A stretch of 43,859 nucleotides of DNA from UHGV virus genome UHGV-0870948; one strand, written 5' to 3'. The position numbers were made by a program, and so were the translations under genes. The notes beneath the pieces are model-generated. The model did not search any database and was not told the DNA's origin. It was given only the letters and a program-made list of their open reading frames with translations. How positions within the stretch are numbered: the first letter of the stretch is position 1; each line of letters opens with the position of its first letter. The DNA comes from a virus. Below are positions 34,320 through 38,922 of this stretch, in pieces.

Positions 34320-34976
34320 TTGTATGAGTCAAAAAAGAAAGAATTGGGAATAACACAATACTCAATCGCTGATGAACTGGGTATCACCCAAGGAGCGGTA
34401 GGGCATTATCTTAATGGCAGAAACGCGCTAAACGTTGAGGTTGCATCTGGTTTTGCACGACTGTTGCAAGTCTCAATTGCTGATTTTAGCCAGTCAATTG
34501 CTGCCAAGGTTGCAGAACAGGCAGAAAGCCTTAAGAGCGATGCCAACGTAAGGTATGCAGGGGAATACAGAGCAGGAAAGAGGTATCCGGTGTTAAGCAG
34601 TATCCAGGCTGGCTCGTGGTGTGAAGCATGCGAACCATACACCATTAAAGACATAGATGTTTGGCTTGAGTCTGACGCGCATATTCAAGGTAATGCGTTC
34701 TGGCTTAAAGTGGAAGGTGATTCAATGACGGCACCGGTTGGGTTAAGCATTCCAGAGGGAACATTCGTTCTTTTCGATACCGGAAGGGAGGCGATCAACG
34801 GCAGCTTGGTCATAGCAAAACTTTCTGACTCTAACGAAGCAACATTCAAGAAGCTGATAATCGACGGCGGAAATAAATACCTCAAGGGACTTAATCCTGC
34901 ATGGCCTCTCGTGCCAATCAATGGAAACTGCAAGATTATAGGCGTTGCAATTGAGACAAAACTAAGGCTGGTTTGA
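34320..34976 (+). CDS. cI: CI-type prophage repressor (HTH plus LexA-like S24 peptidase domain); N-terminus frame-disrupted upstream
   Basis: ORF-track product 218 aa from TTG; the frame stays open back to 34272 and encodes conserved KSLTTEQLEDAKRLKAL, but the only ATG (34261) is in another frame. Confidence 0.8.
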   Translation: MYESKKKELGITQYSIADELGITQGAVGHYLNGRNALNVEVASGFARLLQVSIADFSQSIAAKVAEQAESLKSDANVRYAGEYRAGKRYPVLSSIQAGSWCEACEPYTIKDIDVWLESDAHIQGNAFWLKVEGDSMTAPVGLSIPEGTFVLFDTGREAINGSLVIAKLSDSNEATFKKLIIDGGNKYLKGLNPAWPLVPINGNCKIIGVAIETKLRLV

Positions 34977-34993
34977 TCACGCAAGGGGCGATT

Positions 34994-35362
34994 ATGGTTG
35001 GAACCGCTATAGCAAGCTTTTTTGGGATGTTGGCAATCTCGACAATTTACGGCTTAGCGCATGCTTTTATTGCGAAATCTCTATCAGAAAAAATAAGCCA
35101 GGCTTGGGCGCATAGATTAGCTCGTTTCATGATTCTGGTGATCATAGCAATACAAGGGATATCTGCATTTATCCTCTATGGTTCAAGCTTATACCTGTTG
35201 TATCAAGGCGCGACATTTACGCCTTACACCAGTGATTACGGAACGCTATACGATGGTAGTGAAGACATCTCTATGGCTTGGATCGTCTTTGGTTTATCTA
35301 TGGCCGTGTCTGTTGTAGCAGACATCATTAAGGTAATTCTCGTCTTAACCTTCGCTGACTAA
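34994..35362 (+). CDS. Small polytopic membrane protein in the rexAB position (candidate exclusion protein)
   Basis: About 122 aa from ATG 34994 with AAGGGG RBS; three to four hydrophobic helices; overlaps or abuts the cI stop. Confidence 0.5.
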   Translation: MVGTAIASFFGMLAISTIYGLAHAFIAKSLSEKISQAWAHRLARFMILVIIAIQGISAFILYGSSLYLLYQGATFTPYTSDYGTLYDGSEDISMAWIVFGLSMAVSVVADIIKVILVLTFAD

Positions 35363-35580: not shown

Positions 35581-35621
35581 GGCTCTTTAACATTGATGGG
35601 ATTGTCCCGCCGAAATGCGGG
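35581..35621 (+). promoter_or_regulatory. nutL (boxA GCTCTTTAACA and boxB hairpin CCCGC-CGAAAT-GCGGG)
   Basis: Located between PL and the N gene; same boxA and loop as nutR. Confidence 0.6.
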
Positions 35622-35729
35622 AACCAAAGAGTAGTTGGCTTTGGGGTGACGTGAAGTGCAGCTGCACGACGGCAACCGGAAGATAAGCACCCGGCGCGTC
35701 ACCGCCAAAGTCAATCATCGGAGGTCAAC

Positions 35730-36035
35730 ATGACAGTAGTCATTACATATCTGGCTGACGATAACGCCAGAAATCGCCGCAGAGCACGCAGACAGGCTCA
35801 ACGTGAACAGGCAATGCAAGAGCAGCGACTGGCGCGAAAAATTGCGCTAAAGCTCTCTGGTTGCGTCAGGGCAGACAAAGCAGCATCACTCGGAAGCCTT
35901 CGCTGCCAGAAGGCAGAAGAAGTCGAGCGTAAACAGAACCGTATTTACTACCGCAAGCCACGCAGTGAAATGGGTGTGACATGCTCAGGCCGCCAGAAGC
36001 AACGCGGAAAATCAATTCCAGCTTATTACGATTGA
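35730..36035 (+). CDS. N: N-type transcription antiterminator
   Basis: Arg-rich N-terminus (NARNRRRARRQAQREQ) and C-terminus ...YYRKPRSEMGVTCSGRQKQRGKSIP matching lambda N. Confidence 0.8.
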   Translation: MTVVITYLADDNARNRRRARRQAQREQAMQEQRLARKIALKLSGCVRADKAASLGSLRCQKAEEVERKQNRIYYRKPRSEMGVTCSGRQKQRGKSIPAYYD

Positions 36036-36043
36036 GGTGAGCC

Positions 36044-36181
36044 ATGCTCAAGAAAGTCAAACGCCGACTTTACAAAGAAGGTAGATATTCATGCCAGTTG
36101 CCAAAATGCGACACAGCAAAATGGAGTGTCGATGATTGGTGTAACTGGATAGATAGATACGGAACTTGGTGGGATAAATAA
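36044..36181 (+). CDS. Small Cys/Trp-rich protein (hypothetical)
   Basis: 45 aa not in the ORF track: MLKKVKRRLYKEGRYSCQLPKCDTAKWSVDDWCNWIDRYGTWWDK; RBS GAGGTGAG abuts the N stop. Confidence 0.3.
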   Translation: MLKKVKRRLYKEGRYSCQLPKCDTAKWSVDDWCNWIDRYGTWWDK

Positions 36182-36235
36182 CAGGTAACTTAAGCATATT
36201 TACTTTCGCAGCAAACCACTTATTTGAGGTGAGAT

Positions 36236-36706
36236 ATGACAAAATCATGGAGCGTACCTTTTCCTGAATCAGAAACTGAACATGATGGAATGCCTGTTTT
36301 CTGGAGATTCCAAGCGACAGTTGAAGAAGATGGAATCAAAATATTCGCACTTCAATATATAGCTTTTCATCAGACAGAGCATTATGCATGGTTGGTTCCT
36401 GCGAATTGGATTGTTAATTTTAAACCAGCACCAAATCAGTGGTTACAGGAATGGAAACAAAGGAGAAATAGATATGCAATTAAGAAAGTAGCAAAAAATG
36501 CAGAAAGATCTTTTGCATTCCCAACGAAGAAACTTGCCATTGAGAGTTTATTGCGCCGGAAGAAATACCATTTAATGAGAATCAAACAAGATTTGGCTGT
36601 TGTATCAACTCTTGTTGATGGGATGAAAAATATTGATACATCAACACCAGATATTGAATATAACTTTGGACACAACCAAGAAACAGAAAATTGGGTATTT
36701 TATTAG
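36236..36706 (+). CDS. Hypothetical protein in an AT-rich segment downstream of N
   Basis: 156 aa; RBS TTGAGGTGAG identical to that of the preceding small ORF; visibly AT-rich codon usage. Confidence 0.5.
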   Translation: MTKSWSVPFPESETEHDGMPVFWRFQATVEEDGIKIFALQYIAFHQTEHYAWLVPANWIVNFKPAPNQWLQEWKQRRNRYAIKKVAKNAERSFAFPTKKLAIESLLRRKKYHLMRIKQDLAVVSTLVDGMKNIDTSTPDIEYNFGHNQETENWVFY

Positions 36707-36810
36707 TACGAATAAGCACTGTGTATTCATTCCAACGAGTGAATACACGGAGCAATGTCGCTCGTAACTAAACAGGAGCCGACTTGTTCTGATTATTGGA
36801 AATCTTCTTT

Positions 36811-36836
36811 GCCCTCCAGTGTGAGGGCCTTTTTAT
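36811..36836 (+). terminator. Rho-independent terminator (tL-like)
   Basis: GCCCTC-CAGTGT-GAGGGC followed by CTTTTTAT. Confidence 0.55.
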
Positions 36837-36897
36837 ATGCATACCAATAACGCTTCACTCGAGGCGTTTTTCGTTATGTATAAATAAGGAGCACACC

Positions 36898-37038
36898 ATG
36901 CAATATGCCATTGCAGGGTGGCCTGTTGCTGGCTGCCCTTCCGAATCTTTACTTGAACGAATCACACGTAAATTACGTGATGGATGGAAACGCCTTATCG
37001 ACATACTTAATCAGCCAGGAGTTCCCAAAAATGGATAA
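36898..37038 (+). CDS. Small hypothetical protein
   Basis: 46 aa from ATG preceded by TAAGGAGC. Confidence 0.4.
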   Translation: MQYAIAGWPVAGCPSESLLERITRKLRDGWKRLIDILNQPGVPKNG

Positions 37039-37144
37039 AACACTTATGGCTATCCAGACTAAATTCACTATCGCCACTTTTATTGGCGATGAAAAGATGT
37101 TTCGTGAAGCCGTAGAAGCCTACAGAAAATGGAGGTCAAAATGA
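37031..37144 (+). CDS. Small hypothetical protein
   Basis: 37 aa (MDKTLMAIQTKFTIATFIGDEKMFREAVEAYRKWRSK), overlaps neighbours. Confidence 0.3.
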   Translation: MDKTLMAIQTKFTIATFIGDEKMFREAVEAYRKWRSK

Positions 37145-37329
37145 TTCCGGTAGAACTGGCGAAAACTCCAGAGTTAAGTCGATTAAAAAGAGAATATCAC
37201 ATTGCTGAGGCTCGTTACTGGCGTAAAGCGGGAGATAAATCAAAGAAACAACTTTGTTTATGGCAGGCGCAAAGAGAGCGCATGAATGAGCGCGAATTTC
37301 TTCCCCCCCCATCCGAATTACCATTCTGA
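37141..37329 (+). CDS. Small hypothetical protein
   Basis: 62 aa from ATG preceded by GGAGG. Confidence 0.4.
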   Translation: MIPVELAKTPELSRLKREYHIAEARYWRKAGDKSKKQLCLWQAQRERMNEREFLPPPSELPF

Positions 37330-37337
37330 GGTGAATT

Positions 37338-38018
37338 ATGGGAACTGCGACATTAATACTCGGTGAGTCTGGCACCGGAAAATCAACCAGCATGAGAAAT
37401 ATCAATCCAGAGGAAGCAATACTTATAAAACCAATAGGCAAGCCACTACCATTTAAATCAAAAGACTGGCTTGCATGGGATGCCAGAGCCAAAAAAGGAA
37501 CCGTAGTTACCACTGACAAATGGGACGTAATAGTTGCCGTAATTAAGCGTGCTCACGAATACGGGAAAAGAATCGTTATTGTTGATGACTTCCAGTATGT
37601 GATGAGCAATGAGTTTATGCGCCGCTCAGAAGAAAAATCGTTTGATAAATTCACTGAGATAGGCCGTCACGCATGGGAGGTGATTAAGGCTGCGCAGGAT
37701 GCACCTGATGACCTGAGAGTCTATTTTCTTGCGCACACCGAAGAAACCCCTATGGGGCGCGTGAAAATGAAGACTATCGGCAAAATGCTGGACGAGAAAA
37801 TCACTGTCGAAGGCATGTTTACTATAGTTCTTCGCACCCTTACCCGTGATGACCAGTTCTTTTTCACCACGAAAAACAACGGTGCAGACACTGTTAAATC
37901 CCCAATTGGAATGTTTGACTCCAATGAGATTGATAACGATCTCTCTTTCGTCGATGCCACTGTTTGTGATTACTACGGCATCAATAATGTTCATCAAATT
38001 AAGGAAAACGCCGCATGA
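37338..38018 (+). CDS. P-loop ATPase (Sak4-like recombination protein)
   Basis: Walker A GESGTGKST near the N-terminus and Walker B IVIVDD; 226 aa. Confidence 0.6.
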   Translation: MGTATLILGESGTGKSTSMRNINPEEAILIKPIGKPLPFKSKDWLAWDARAKKGTVVTTDKWDVIVAVIKRAHEYGKRIVIVDDFQYVMSNEFMRRSEEKSFDKFTEIGRHAWEVIKAAQDAPDDLRVYFLAHTEETPMGRVKMKTIGKMLDEKITVEGMFTIVLRTLTRDDQFFFTTKNNGADTVKSPIGMFDSNEIDNDLSFVDATVCDYYGINNVHQIKENAA

Positions 38019-38602
38019 GCAACGTGATTTTTACTTATAACGAAGAAGCAGCACTGACCGCAGGGCAAGGTGGTTTTATTAACGAAACTGGCGCTCATAT
38101 CATTACCATTACTGAAGCAGAACTAAAGCAATCAGAAAAAGGCGCAAAATTTATTGAGTTTTCTGGCGAATCCGACGACGGACGTAAAATCCAATATCTT
38201 AGCGTCTGTGTTCAGAAAAATGACGGAACGGAAAACAAATTTGGCGCAAATGTCGTTCACGCCATGATGGGGTGTGCCGGGATTGGACAATTAACGCAGC
38301 ATATGGTTTCCGCCAGTAAATTTGTTGCACCTGAATTTCATGGAAAGAAAATCGGGTTAGTGCTCCAGAAAGTATTAACCACAAACAAAAAGACTGGCGC
38401 AGACAGCTACCAGATGGAAATACGCATCCCGTTTATTGCACAAACAGGTCAAACCCTTAAAGAAAAGGCAGAAGGCAAGCAACCAGAAACTATCGCCAAC
38501 ATGGTTGCCAATCTCAAAGATAAAGACAATCGCTCTAAAAACGTAAGCCAGAATCATGCAGATGATTATGGTTACAGCCAGAACGATTACCCTCCTTTCT
38601 GA
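38015..38602 (+). CDS. SSB-like phage protein with acidic C-terminal tail
   Basis: 195 aa coupled to the ATPase; C-terminus ...DDYGYSQNDYPPF resembles the SSB acidic tip. Confidence 0.45.
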   Translation: MSNVIFTYNEEAALTAGQGGFINETGAHIITITEAELKQSEKGAKFIEFSGESDDGRKIQYLSVCVQKNDGTENKFGANVVHAMMGCAGIGQLTQHMVSASKFVAPEFHGKKIGLVLQKVLTTNKKTGADSYQMEIRIPFIAQTGQTLKEKAEGKQPETIANMVANLKDKDNRSKNVSQNHADDYGYSQNDYPPF

Positions 38603-38625
38603 TTACTGAAAATAAGGCTCCCATT

Positions 38626-38922
38626 ATGCCAGCGCCTCTGTATGGTGCGGATGACCCGCGCAATTGCTCCGGTAGCTCCAAGGCGGAGGTGCTGGAAAAT
38701 ATCAAAAACATTTTCGACACGTTTATTGATCTGCCACCAGAAACAAAAGCAGAACGGATGTACCGACGCGATATACAACTCGCGTTAAAAGATGAGAAGG
38801 ACCGAACAAACGAAACAGCAATGAGACCGTTGCGAAAAGCGACAATAGACAAATTCCCTGAATATATCGACCCGCGCCTGCGTAATTACCGCTCACGCTA
38901 TGGCGCTATCAGTAATGACTGA
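38626..38922 (+). CDS. Hypothetical early protein
   Basis: 98-aa ORF. Confidence 0.4.

What the first reader, a model, noticed from the sequence alone, without database searches (positions are those of the whole stretch)
36044..36706. AT-rich accessory pair immediately downstream of N with identical ribosome-binding sites
Seen in sequence: a 45-aa Cys/Trp-rich ORF and a 156-aa ORF each follow the 10-mer TTGAGGTGAG, and the segment is visibly AT-rich. In lambdoid phages the post-N slot often carries ral/sieB-type host-interaction or exclusion genes. A strong hairpin (GTGTATTCA...TGAATACAC) and a terminator follow.
Basis: partly seen in the sequence, partly recalled or inferred. Interest (0 to 1): 0.45.

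Follow-up and report, generated by a model that had tools for sequence, protein, structure and literature searches.

The report
Two swappable accessory genes after N
Just after the antiterminator gene N of a lambda-like phage sit two real but uncharacterised early genes, each an independent plug-in cassette joined through the same short linker, which is why their ribosome-binding sites are identical; this is ordinary phage mosaicism, though the larger protein belongs to a widespread phage family with no known fold or function.

Summary
A 45-aa ORF (36044-36181) and a 156-aa ORF (36236-36706) each start 2 nt after TTGAGGTGAG. The segment is the most AT-rich of the window (36.7% vs 49.4% GC), and a 12-bp hairpin and two terminator-like sites follow.

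The two genes are not a functional pair. orf156 (99% identical to 933W L0079 and HK97 gp45; phrog_1636; no Pfam) occurs in 598 of 5426 complete E. coli genomes. orf45 (Pfam DUF5484; Sf6 gp36; T4-like gp55.4) occurs in 145. They are joined in only 45.

The identical 10-mers are copies of one junction: the 3' end and stop codon of a phage-21-type N gene plus a strong Shine-Dalgarno. In other phages this junction precedes orf28-ral, a 149-aa membrane protein, orf45 or orf156. orf156 sits where ral sits in lambda, and the hairpin and terminators are the conserved backbone that follows ral there.

Function is unknown. My best guess, at low confidence, is early-expressed host-interaction or counter-defence proteins. 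No homology to Ral or SieB was found. Interest is modest.

The parts
35582..35622 (+). nutL-like element upstream of N: boxA-like GCTCTTTAACA (35582-35592) and a boxB-like stem-loop (about 35605-35622). Context only.
   Evidence: Read directly from the sequence. boxA consensus recalled from established lambda biology. Not tested further.
35730..36035 (+). N antiterminator gene (101 aa). It is phage-21-type in its central and C-terminal part, with an alternative last ~14 codons that travel with the orf45 cassette.
   Evidence: phrog_271 E 7e-36. Pfam N_peptide is weak, E 0.004, below its cut-off. 64% identity to phage 21 N.
36032..36041 (+). Linker copy 1: TTGAGGTGAG. It contains the N stop codon TGA (36033-36035) and the Shine-Dalgarno of orf45.
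36044..36181 (+). orf45: a 45-aa protein of family DUF5484 (equivalent to Sf6 gp36, SfI gp44 and T4-like gp55.4).
   Evidence: Pfam PF17583 at 44.4 bits against a cut-off of 27. phrog_1871 E 5e-22. Cluster names. 1036 phage records by tblastn. Family alignment A3.
36208..36235 (+). Relic of the 3' end of a phage-21-type N gene (codons SKPLI-stop) plus linker copy 2 (10-mer at 36224-36233), which serves as the Shine-Dalgarno of orf156.
   Evidence: Identical to the N-3'-end/SD junction in 933W, HK97 and IMG/VR loci. In 18 of 83 occurrences across the loci scanned, a full N ORF stops at this TGA.
36236..36706 (+). orf156: a 156-aa basic alpha/beta protein, equivalent to 933W L0079 and HK97 gp45 (phrog_1636). 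The family has no Pfam model and no solved structural relative.
36716..36753 (+). Conserved hairpin (perfect 12-bp core at 36721-36748, 4-nt loop, no T-run). It is backbone sequence that lies 42 nt downstream of ral in lambda. Role unknown.
   Evidence: Homology to lambda, phage 21, HK97 and 933W. No Rfam family.
36811..36838 (+). Intrinsic-terminator-like site 1 (GCCCTC-cagtgt-GAGGGC followed by CTTTTTATAT). The homologous site is annotated as a terminator in phage 21 and HK97.
36849..36878 (+). Intrinsic-terminator-like site 2 (8-bp stem plus T-run), just upstream of cIII. In lambda, ea10 lies between the homologues of sites 1 and 2; it is absent here.
36885..37038 (+). cIII thermoregulator RNA element (36885-36943) and the cIII gene (36898-37038). 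This marks the right-hand end of the variable slot.
   Evidence: Rfam RF01804 at 88.5 bits. tblastn match to lambda CIII at 98%.

Best explanation
**Anatomy (shown, about 0.9 confidence).**
- The segment is the hypervariable accessory slot between N and cIII in the leftward early (pL) operon of a lambdoid phage.
- It holds two independent, gene-sized cassettes.
- Each cassette is attached through the same linker: the last codons and TGA stop of a phage-21-type N gene, fused to a strong Shine-Dalgarno (TTATT-TGA-GGTGAG).
- Recombination at this linker swaps or stacks cassettes (orf28-ral, a 149-aa membrane protein, orf45, orf156). This leaves duplicated linkers and so identical ribosome-binding sites.
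- orf45 has its Shine-Dalgarno over the N stop codon. orf156 has its own copy after a 54-nt spacer.
- No terminator-like or promoter-like site lies between N and the end of orf156. Both genes are therefore most simply transcribed from pL together with N, as early lytic genes.

**Function (inferred, about 0.3-0.35 confidence).**
- Both are dispensable early host-interaction proteins, of the counter-defence or host-takeover type, rather than prophage-expressed exclusion genes.
- orf156 is a compact monomer-sized protein. It has a three-stranded sheet, a 33-residue helix and a conserved basic belt at residues 71-120.
- I propose that it binds nucleic acid, or a host protein that handles nucleic acid, and occupies the same functional niche as Ral without being related to it.
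- orf45 is a 45-residue Trp-containing early peptide shared with T4-like, phiKMV-like and Kuravirus phages. It most likely binds and modulates a conserved host protein.
For: **Coding reality**
- orf45 scores 44.4 bits against DUF5484 (cut-off 27) and hits phrog_1871. Homologues occur in 1036 phage records.
- orf156 hits phrog_1636 at E 2e-111.
- An exhaustive profile search for orf156 found 87 representative clusters.
- Its AF2 model reaches pLDDT 95.6 and pTM 0.83 with the 69-sequence alignment.

**Independence of the two genes**
- Of the 80 IMG/VR loci that carry orf156, only 3 also carry orf45.
- In E. coli genomes: orf156 in 598, orf45 in 145, joined in 45.

**Linker**
- The junction is identical in 933W, HK97 and phage 21.
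- A full N ORF ends at the TGA inside the 10-mer in 18 of 83 occurrences.
- Three cassettes in tandem, each with the linker, occur in L034.

**Slot equivalence with ral**
-. Ral lies upstream of orf156 in 0 of the 80 IMG/VR loci, but it co-occurs with orf156 in phi367.

**Early lytic expression**
- No terminator-like site lies between 35730 and 36811. The only +-strand promoter-like site is pL-proximal.

**Phage-wide early accessory character**
- Distant orf156 relatives lie in early operons next to DNA methyltransferases, a Lar-family gene, RdgC, YqaJ/RecT, SSB and integrase.
- In one E. coli prophage an Nmad5-family gene sits between orf45 and orf156.
- orf45 relatives lie in early arrays of small genes in virulent phages.
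- The BFVD structural neighbours are all uncharacterised phage proteins.

**Basic character**
- Median family pI is 8.9, with a positive belt at residues 71-120.

**Foreign composition**
- This is the lowest-GC stretch of the window.
Against: - No homology or fold match links either protein to any characterised anti-defence, exclusion, regulatory or DNA-metabolism protein.
- The association with methyltransferases (6 of 10 distant contexts) has no background rate. Such genes are common in these operons, so it is only a lead.
- A basic surface does not prove nucleic-acid binding.
- Rho-dependent terminators and weak or non-sigma-70-consensus promoters would escape the scan. Immediate-early, N-independent transcription and silence in the lysogen are therefore inferred, not shown.
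- Ral and orf156 co-occur in some phages (phi367, phi296, one E. coli genome), so they are not strict alternatives.
- No paper in the searchable library mentions either protein.
Confidence: 0.4

Rival explanations
1. DNA-metabolism accessory. orf156 is a basic DNA- or RNA-binding cofactor of the phage recombination and replication machinery (here Sak4, SSB, Abc2) rather than a counter-defence factor.
For: - It has a basic belt.
- Distant homologues lie beside RecE, RecT, YqaJ, RdgC and SSB genes.
- It lies in the same operon as Sak4, SSB and Abc2 in the window.
Against: - In lambdoid phages it combines freely with unrelated recombination modules: Red in 933W and phi367, Erf in HK97, Sak4 here. 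This argues against a dedicated partner.
- It is absent from most lambdoid phages.
- It has no homology to any known recombination or replication protein.
Confidence: 0.2
2. Developmental or host-physiology modulators of the cIII/Kil type. These would be small early proteins that inhibit a host protein (protease, division, transcription or translation factor) to tune the lysis-lysogeny decision or host shut-off.
For: - They lie immediately upstream of cIII and kil in the same transcript.
- orf45 is a 45-aa peptide, like Kil and CIII.
- orf45 relatives lie in early host-takeover arrays of T4-like, phiKMV-like and Kuravirus phages.
Against: - The sporadic distribution (11% and 2.7% of E. coli genomes) fits an arms-race accessory better than a core regulator.
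- No target can be named.
Confidence: 0.2
3. Prophage-expressed exclusion or defence genes of the sieB/rex type, which protect the lysogen against other phages.
For: - The region between cI and cIII of lambdoid phages is known to host such genes (rexAB, sieB; lambda annotation).
- Very low GC is typical of morons.
- One distant homologue (L086) sits alone on the opposite strand among structural genes, like a moron.
Against: - No promoter-like site lies upstream of either gene other than pL, which the repressor shuts off.
- Both families also occur in virulent phages, which have no lysogenic state.
- There is no PADLOC hit.
- orf156 is predicted to be soluble, unlike SieB.
Confidence: 0.12
4. 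A functional two-gene module (for example toxin-antitoxin or a two-component system), signalled by the matched ribosome-binding sites.
For: The two genes are adjacent, on the same strand, with identical SD and spacing.
Against: - The genes are joined in only 45 of the 702 genomes that carry either.
- Other genes are inserted between them in some loci.
- The identical SD is explained by the linker, which also precedes unrelated genes.
Confidence: 0.03
5. One or both ORFs are not real genes.
For: NCBI's pipeline leaves orf45 unannotated in RefSeq E. coli genomes.
Against: - orf45 has a Pfam hit above its cut-off, and the family is conserved across four phage groups with invariant residues.
- orf156 is conserved from 99% down to 20% identity, and its model is confident.
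Confidence: 0.02

Closest known systems
HK97 gp45 / 933W L0079 / H-19B and BP-4795 homologues (phrog_1636)
   Same: Identity to orf156 is 98-99% over all 156 residues. The SD linker and 3' flank are the same, and the position after N is the same.
   Different: Nothing of substance differs. These are catalogued hypothetical proteins with no published function that I could find.
DUF5484 (Pfam PF17583): Sf6 gp36, SfI gp44, T4-like gp55.4
   Same: orf45 scores above the Pfam cut-off. K6, R7, L9, G13, Y15, P20, W27, W32, I36, D37 and G40 are conserved. All are early genes.
   Different: The three Cys of this copy are not family features. Identity to the virulent-phage homologues is only 38-50%. The function of the whole family is unknown.
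Lambda Ral (restriction alleviation)
   Same: It occupies the same slot after N and has the same downstream hairpin and terminator backbone. It is preceded (through orf28) by the same N-3'-end/SD linker in phage 21.
   Different: There is no sequence or profile similarity (hhalign probability 0.1%). The sizes differ (66 vs 156 aa). The two can co-occur. No restriction-alleviation activity has been tested.
Mosaic cassette exchange at gene boundaries in lambdoid phages (modular theory; 'morons')
   Same: The cassettes are gene-sized. The left junction is at the SD, the right junction is within about 10 nt of the stop codon, GC is atypically low, and a short conserved boundary sequence is reused.
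   Different: Classic morons carry their own promoter and terminator. These cassettes have neither, and rely on pL and on translational signals in the linker. The comparison with the literature on mosaicism rests on my own knowledge, not on a paper read here.
Lambda SieB / RexAB exclusion genes
   Same: They lie in the same neighbourhood of the immunity and early-left region.
   Different: No homology was found. No own promoter was detected. orf156 is predicted to be soluble. The families also occur in virulent phages.

Membership tests
Pfam DUF5484 (PF17583) | Score against the family HMM above the curated gathering cut-off (27 bits). | tested here: met
   orf45 scores 44.4 bits, E 1.3e-11, covering profile positions 3-41 of 43.
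PHROG 1636 (HK97 gp45 / 933W L0079 family) | Full-length match to the family profile and near-identity to named members. | tested here: met
   E 2.3e-111 over positions 1-156 of 156. 99% identity to 933W L0079 and HK97 gp45.
Ral (restriction alleviation) family | Sequence or profile similarity to lambda Ral. | tested here: not met
   No Pfam, NCBIfam or PHROG Ral hit. hhalign of the 69-sequence profile against lambda Ral gives probability 0.1%.
Ral (restriction alleviation) family | Position after N, upstream of the conserved hairpin/terminator-ea10-cIII backbone. | tested here: met
   The 3' flank of orf156 is 98% identical to the DNA starting 42 nt after ral in lambda.
Ral (restriction alleviation) family | Alleviation of type I restriction or enhancement of modification. 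| not testable with these tools
   This needs plating of unmodified phage on EcoKI/EcoBI hosts with and without orf156.
SieB / Rex-type exclusion genes | Homology to the family or to any catalogued defence protein. | tested here: not met
   No Pfam hit. PADLOC gave only noise (E 0.013 for Cas1_II).
SieB / Rex-type exclusion genes | Expression in the lysogen from an own promoter. | tested here: inconclusive
   The consensus scan finds no +-strand promoter-like site between pL and 36706, but weak or atypical promoters would be missed.
   C17, C22 and C33 are replaced by L/V/T, G and I in homologues from five other phages.
Lambdoid pL-operon accessory cassette (mosaic module) | Presence or absence varies between otherwise collinear phages, with junctions at gene boundaries. 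| tested here: met
   The left junction is at the SD linker. On the right, homology to lambda resumes at 36716, 10 nt after the stop codon.

The most novel reading that the evidence does not exclude
The HK97 gp45 / 933W L0079 family (orf156) has a previously unseen fold. It would be a phage-wide early protein that neutralises a nucleic-acid-targeting host defence (restriction or another system) by binding DNA/RNA or the defence protein. It would then be a functional analogue of Ral, carried by about 11% of E. coli genomes and by several well-known Stx phages (933W, H-19B, BP-4795, Min27). orf45 (DUF5484 / T4 gp55.4) would be a second, independent small inhibitor shared between temperate and virulent phages.
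Probability: 0.25. Interest if true: 0.6.

Novelty: new member of a known kind. Interest (0 to 1): 0.3.

Why it matters
- **Immediate result:** it explains a puzzling detail. The identical ribosome-binding sites are duplicated recombination linkers made of the N stop codon plus an SD. It also dissolves the idea of a gene pair.
- **Longer-term value:** orf156 is a well-defined target. It is present in several well-known Stx-converting phages (933W, H-19B, BP-4795, Min27), in HK97, and in about one in nine complete E. coli genomes.
- It is conserved down to 20% identity in phages of many bacterial groups. It is confidently modelled, yet has no Pfam family, no solved structural relative and no literature that I could find.
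- If it proves to be a counter-defence or host-takeover factor, it would add a new fold and mechanism to a heavily studied operon. It could also be relevant to the host range of Stx phages.
- If not, it remains one of many uncharacterised lambdoid accessory genes.

Tried and rejected
**Family and structure searches**
- *Pfam, NCBIfam, PADLOC and PHROG scans of both proteins and of all 69 members of the orf156 alignment:* only unknown-function PHROGs and DUF5484 came back.
- *PDB sequence searches with three profiles:* nothing below E 0.3.
- *First AF2 run with a shallow alignment:* unusable, pLDDT 55.7. The second run with distant representatives succeeded.
- *BFVD:* only uncharacterised phage proteins.
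- *Multi-domain relatives as fusion clues:* P0065, P0086 and P0057 turned out to be repeat-like or spurious matches.
- *hhalign against lambda Ral and Ea10:* no relation.

**Literature**
- Searches for L0079, DUF5484, the phrog ids, HK97 gp45, T4 55.4 and several accession numbers found nothing relevant.
- One accession I guessed (NP_049473) turned out to be exo, not L0079.
- The accessory-gene screen of PMC12373910 includes ral. Neither of my sequences appears in its held supplements.

**Other checks**
- *search for related loci with the divergent alignment:* failed for lack of a conserved stretch.
- *Zinc-finger idea for orf45:* rejected, because the Cys are not conserved.
- *Toxin-antitoxin or pair idea:* rejected on distribution.
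- *Hairpin as a cassette-specific regulatory RNA:* rejected. It is backbone sequence shared with lambda, it has no Rfam family, and it shows no variation that would allow a covariation test.

Full report
**What is in the sequence**

The window is a complete lambdoid phage whose + strand in this region runs in the direction of the leftward early operon. The gene order is:
- cI repressor (34320-34976);
- a 129-aa membrane ORF (34973-35362);
- a pL-like promoter and a nutL-like boxA (GCTCTTTAACA, 35582-35592);
- N (35730-36035);
- orf45 (36044-36181);
- orf156 (36236-36706);
- a hairpin and two terminator-like sites;
- cIII, kil, a 66-aa ORF, Sak4, SSB, Abc2, an Ea22-like gene and others, then integrase.

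- TTGAGGTGAG occurs exactly twice in the window, at 36032 and 36224, each 2 nt before an ATG.
- GC is 36.7% over 36044-36706 against 49.4% overall. This is the lowest of all equal-sized windows.
- The hairpin has a perfect 12-bp core at 36721-36748.
- Terminator-like sites lie at 36811-36828 and 36849-36868.

As a bare 10-mer, the repeat is not beyond chance. Its meaning comes from its position and its history.

**Why the ribosome-binding sites are identical**

The first copy contains the stop codon of N (TGA, 36033-36035). The 28 nt before orf156 (36208-36235, GCAGCAAACCACTTATTTGAGGTGAGAT) are identical to the 3' end of a phage-21-type N gene (codons S-K-P-L-I-stop) plus its downstream SD, as found in 933W, HK97 and many IMG/VR prophage contigs.
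- In 18 of the 83 occurrences of this junction before orf156 in the loci scanned, a full-length N ORF terminates at the TGA inside the 10-mer.
- In 933W and HK97 a different N is followed by a 58-nt relic of that N end, and then orf156.

The same junction precedes other genes:
- orf28-ral in phage 21, phi458 and phi367;
- a 149-aa membrane protein in L020 and L034;
- orf45, with a variant N end.

L034 carries three cassettes in a row, each with its own linker. The identical 10-mers are therefore duplicated copies of an 'N stop plus SD' linker, left by cassette exchange or stacking. They are not a sign of co-regulation.

On the right side, homology to lambda resumes 10 nt after the orf156 stop codon. 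The cassette is therefore gene-sized.

**The two genes are independent**

| Sample | orf156 | orf45 | Both joined |
|---|---|---|---|
| 80 IMG/VR loci chosen for orf156 | 80 | 3 | 3 |
| 5426 complete E. coli genomes | 598 | 145 | 45 |

In some genomes an Nmad5-family gene lies between the two. RefSeq annotation calls orf156 'hypothetical protein' and leaves orf45 unannotated.

**The flanking hairpin and terminators are backbone**

Window 36716-36900 is about 98% identical to lambda, phage 21, HK97 and 933W.
- In lambda and phage 21 this DNA starts 42 nt downstream of ral.
- There it is split by ea10, which is absent here.
- The homologue of the first terminator-like site is annotated as a terminator in phage 21 and HK97.
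- Rfam recognises only the cIII thermoregulator (36885-36943).

orf156 therefore occupies the ral position. Ral lies upstream of orf156 in none of the 80 IMG/VR loci, but the two co-occur in phi367, phi296 and one E. coli genome.

**orf45**

orf45 belongs to Pfam DUF5484 (44.4 bits against a cut-off of 27) and to phrog_1871. Sources name identical or near-identical proteins Sf6 gene 36 protein and SfI gp44.

tblastn finds relatives in 1036 phage records. Most are T4-like (gp55.4 in SP18, between nrdH and gene 55). Others lie in Klebsiella T4-like phages, a phiKMV-like Pseudomonas phage and a Kuravirus, always within arrays of small early genes.

The family alignment conserves K6, R7, L9, G13, Y15, P20, W27, W32, I36, D37 and G40. 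It does not conserve the three Cys, so a zinc-binding peptide is unlikely. No solved relative was found by sequence.

**orf156**

orf156 is 99% identical to 933W L0079 and HK97 gp45. It is present in H-19B, BP-4795, Stx2 phage 86, Min27 and many Stx1a/Stx2a phages.
- *Close relatives:* confined to Enterobacterales.
- *Wider family:* an exhaustive profile search found 87 representative clusters, mostly proteins of 130-155 aa at 18-28% identity.
- *Known families:* none of the 69 aligned members hits a Pfam, NCBIfam or PADLOC family meaningfully. All fall in unknown-function PHROGs 1636, 13631 and 25384.

With the deep alignment, AlphaFold2 gives pLDDT 95.6 and pTM 0.83. The model has three long antiparallel strands (19-30, 33-46, 50-55), short helices, a short strand (83-86), a 33-residue helix (98-130) and an ordered C-terminal tail.
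- Foldseek against the PDB gives nothing better than E 0.46.
- BFVD returns only uncharacterised proteins from diverse phages: Erwinia phiEa2809, Achromobacter phiAxp-3, Delftia RG-2014, Cellulophaga phi17:2, and Rhizobium and Sinorhizobium phages.

The family is basic (median pI 8.9) with a conserved positive belt over residues 71-120. G33, T47, K87 and A101 are nearly invariant.

**Context of distant relatives**

Ten independent contexts place the gene in early operons of temperate or virulent phages. Its neighbours include RdgC, YqaJ, RecT, RecE, SSB, CsrA, a Lar-family gene and integrases. In six of the ten, a DNA methyltransferase gene lies in the same operon within about 5 kb. I computed no background rate, so this is only a lead. 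One homologue sits alone on the opposite strand among structural genes. No conserved neighbour or fusion partner emerged.

**How it most likely works**

*Shown:*
- both are real genes with strong, optimally spaced SDs;
- no terminator-like or promoter-like site separates them from N.

*Inferred:*
- They are transcribed from pL together with N, early in lytic growth, and are repressed in the lysogen.
- Five features fit dispensable early host-interaction proteins: sporadic distribution, low GC, the ral slot, presence in virulent phages, and neighbourhoods rich in anti-restriction and DNA-handling genes.
- I put counter-defence or host takeover at about 0.3-0.35.
- I suggest that orf156 acts through its basic surface on nucleic acid or on a nucleic-acid-handling protein.

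*Rivals:*

| Rival | Confidence |
|---|---|
| Recombination or replication accessory | 0.2 |
| cIII/Kil-like modulator of host physiology | 0.2 |
| Prophage-expressed exclusion | 0.12 |
| True two-gene module | 0.03 |
| Spurious ORFs | 0.02 |

None can be excluded without experiments.

**Comparison with what is known, and verdict**

- orf45 is a member of DUF5484. orf156 is a member of the HK97 gp45 / 933W L0079 family.
- Neither is a member of the Ral or SieB families. Similarity was tested and not met.
- orf156 is nonetheless positionally equivalent to Ral.
- The cassette architecture is ordinary lambdoid mosaicism. The reused N-stop/SD linker is a neat, concrete example.
- I found no publication on either protein.

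The finding is real and now explained at the level of anatomy. The genes are already catalogued as hypotheticals, and their function remains open. Interest is modest (0.3). It would rise if the orf156 family proves to be a new-fold counter-defence factor (probability about 0.25).

Noticed in passing
window 36898-37059: cIII carries a TAA stop at codon 47 (37036-37038), where lambda has a Ser codon. The product is 46 aa instead of 54. The remaining 8 codons still align with lambda CIII (and direct reading). HK97 cIII is also short, so the protein is probably functional.
   Followed up: partly
window 36838-36849: The ea10 (ssb-like) gene lies between the two terminator-like sites in lambda, phage 21 and 933W. 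It is cleanly absent here. About 28 of the 80 related loci have it and 35 lack it.
   Followed up: partly
window 36885-36943: Rfam identifies the lambda cIII thermoregulator RNA element (RF01804, 88.5 bits) spanning the cIII start codon.
   Followed up: yes
window 34973-35362: A 129-aa predicted membrane protein (phrog_6534, unknown function) overlaps the cI stop codon by 4 nt and sits in the rexAB position between cI and pL. It travels with this cI allele in related loci. It is a candidate lysogen-expressed exclusion gene.
   Followed up: no
window 37129-38922: The recombination module is Sak4-like ATPase + SSB + Abc2 (anti-RecBCD), preceded by a 66-aa ORF (phrog_1723). It is not the Red exo/bet/gam module found beside orf156 in 933W.
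   Followed up: partly
L034:4272-5470 and L020:4464-5470: A third cassette encoding a 149-aa protein with hydrophobic segments (MEEQANKILV...) is preceded by the same linker and stacked between orf45 and orf156.
   Followed up: partly
L105:2696-3319 (E. coli NZ_CP185938.1): A gene that RefSeq calls 'Nmad5 family putative nucleotide modification protein' sits between orf45 and orf156. A 'TolA'-annotated gene lies between orf156 and cIII in the same prophage.
   Followed up: no
protein P0038; corresponds to window ~36148 joined to ~36737: A variant orf45 product ends ...DDWCNWSEYTEQCRS. This is orf45 fused to the reading frame that crosses the right arm of the hairpin. It implies a natural deletion that removes the 3' end of orf45 and all of orf156.
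   Followed up: no
window 36905-37144: A 79-aa ORF overlapping cIII in another frame matches the long 'Kil' annotation (phrog_2461, 89 aa) used for 933W. The Pfam Kil domain matches only the last 32 codons (37046-37144). The long form looks like an annotation artefact.
   Followed up: partly
E. coli RefSeq genomes: orf45 lies under no annotated feature in all 12 listed hits (145 genomes match in total), although it is a bona fide Pfam DUF5484 member. This is a systematic small-gene annotation gap.
   Followed up: partly
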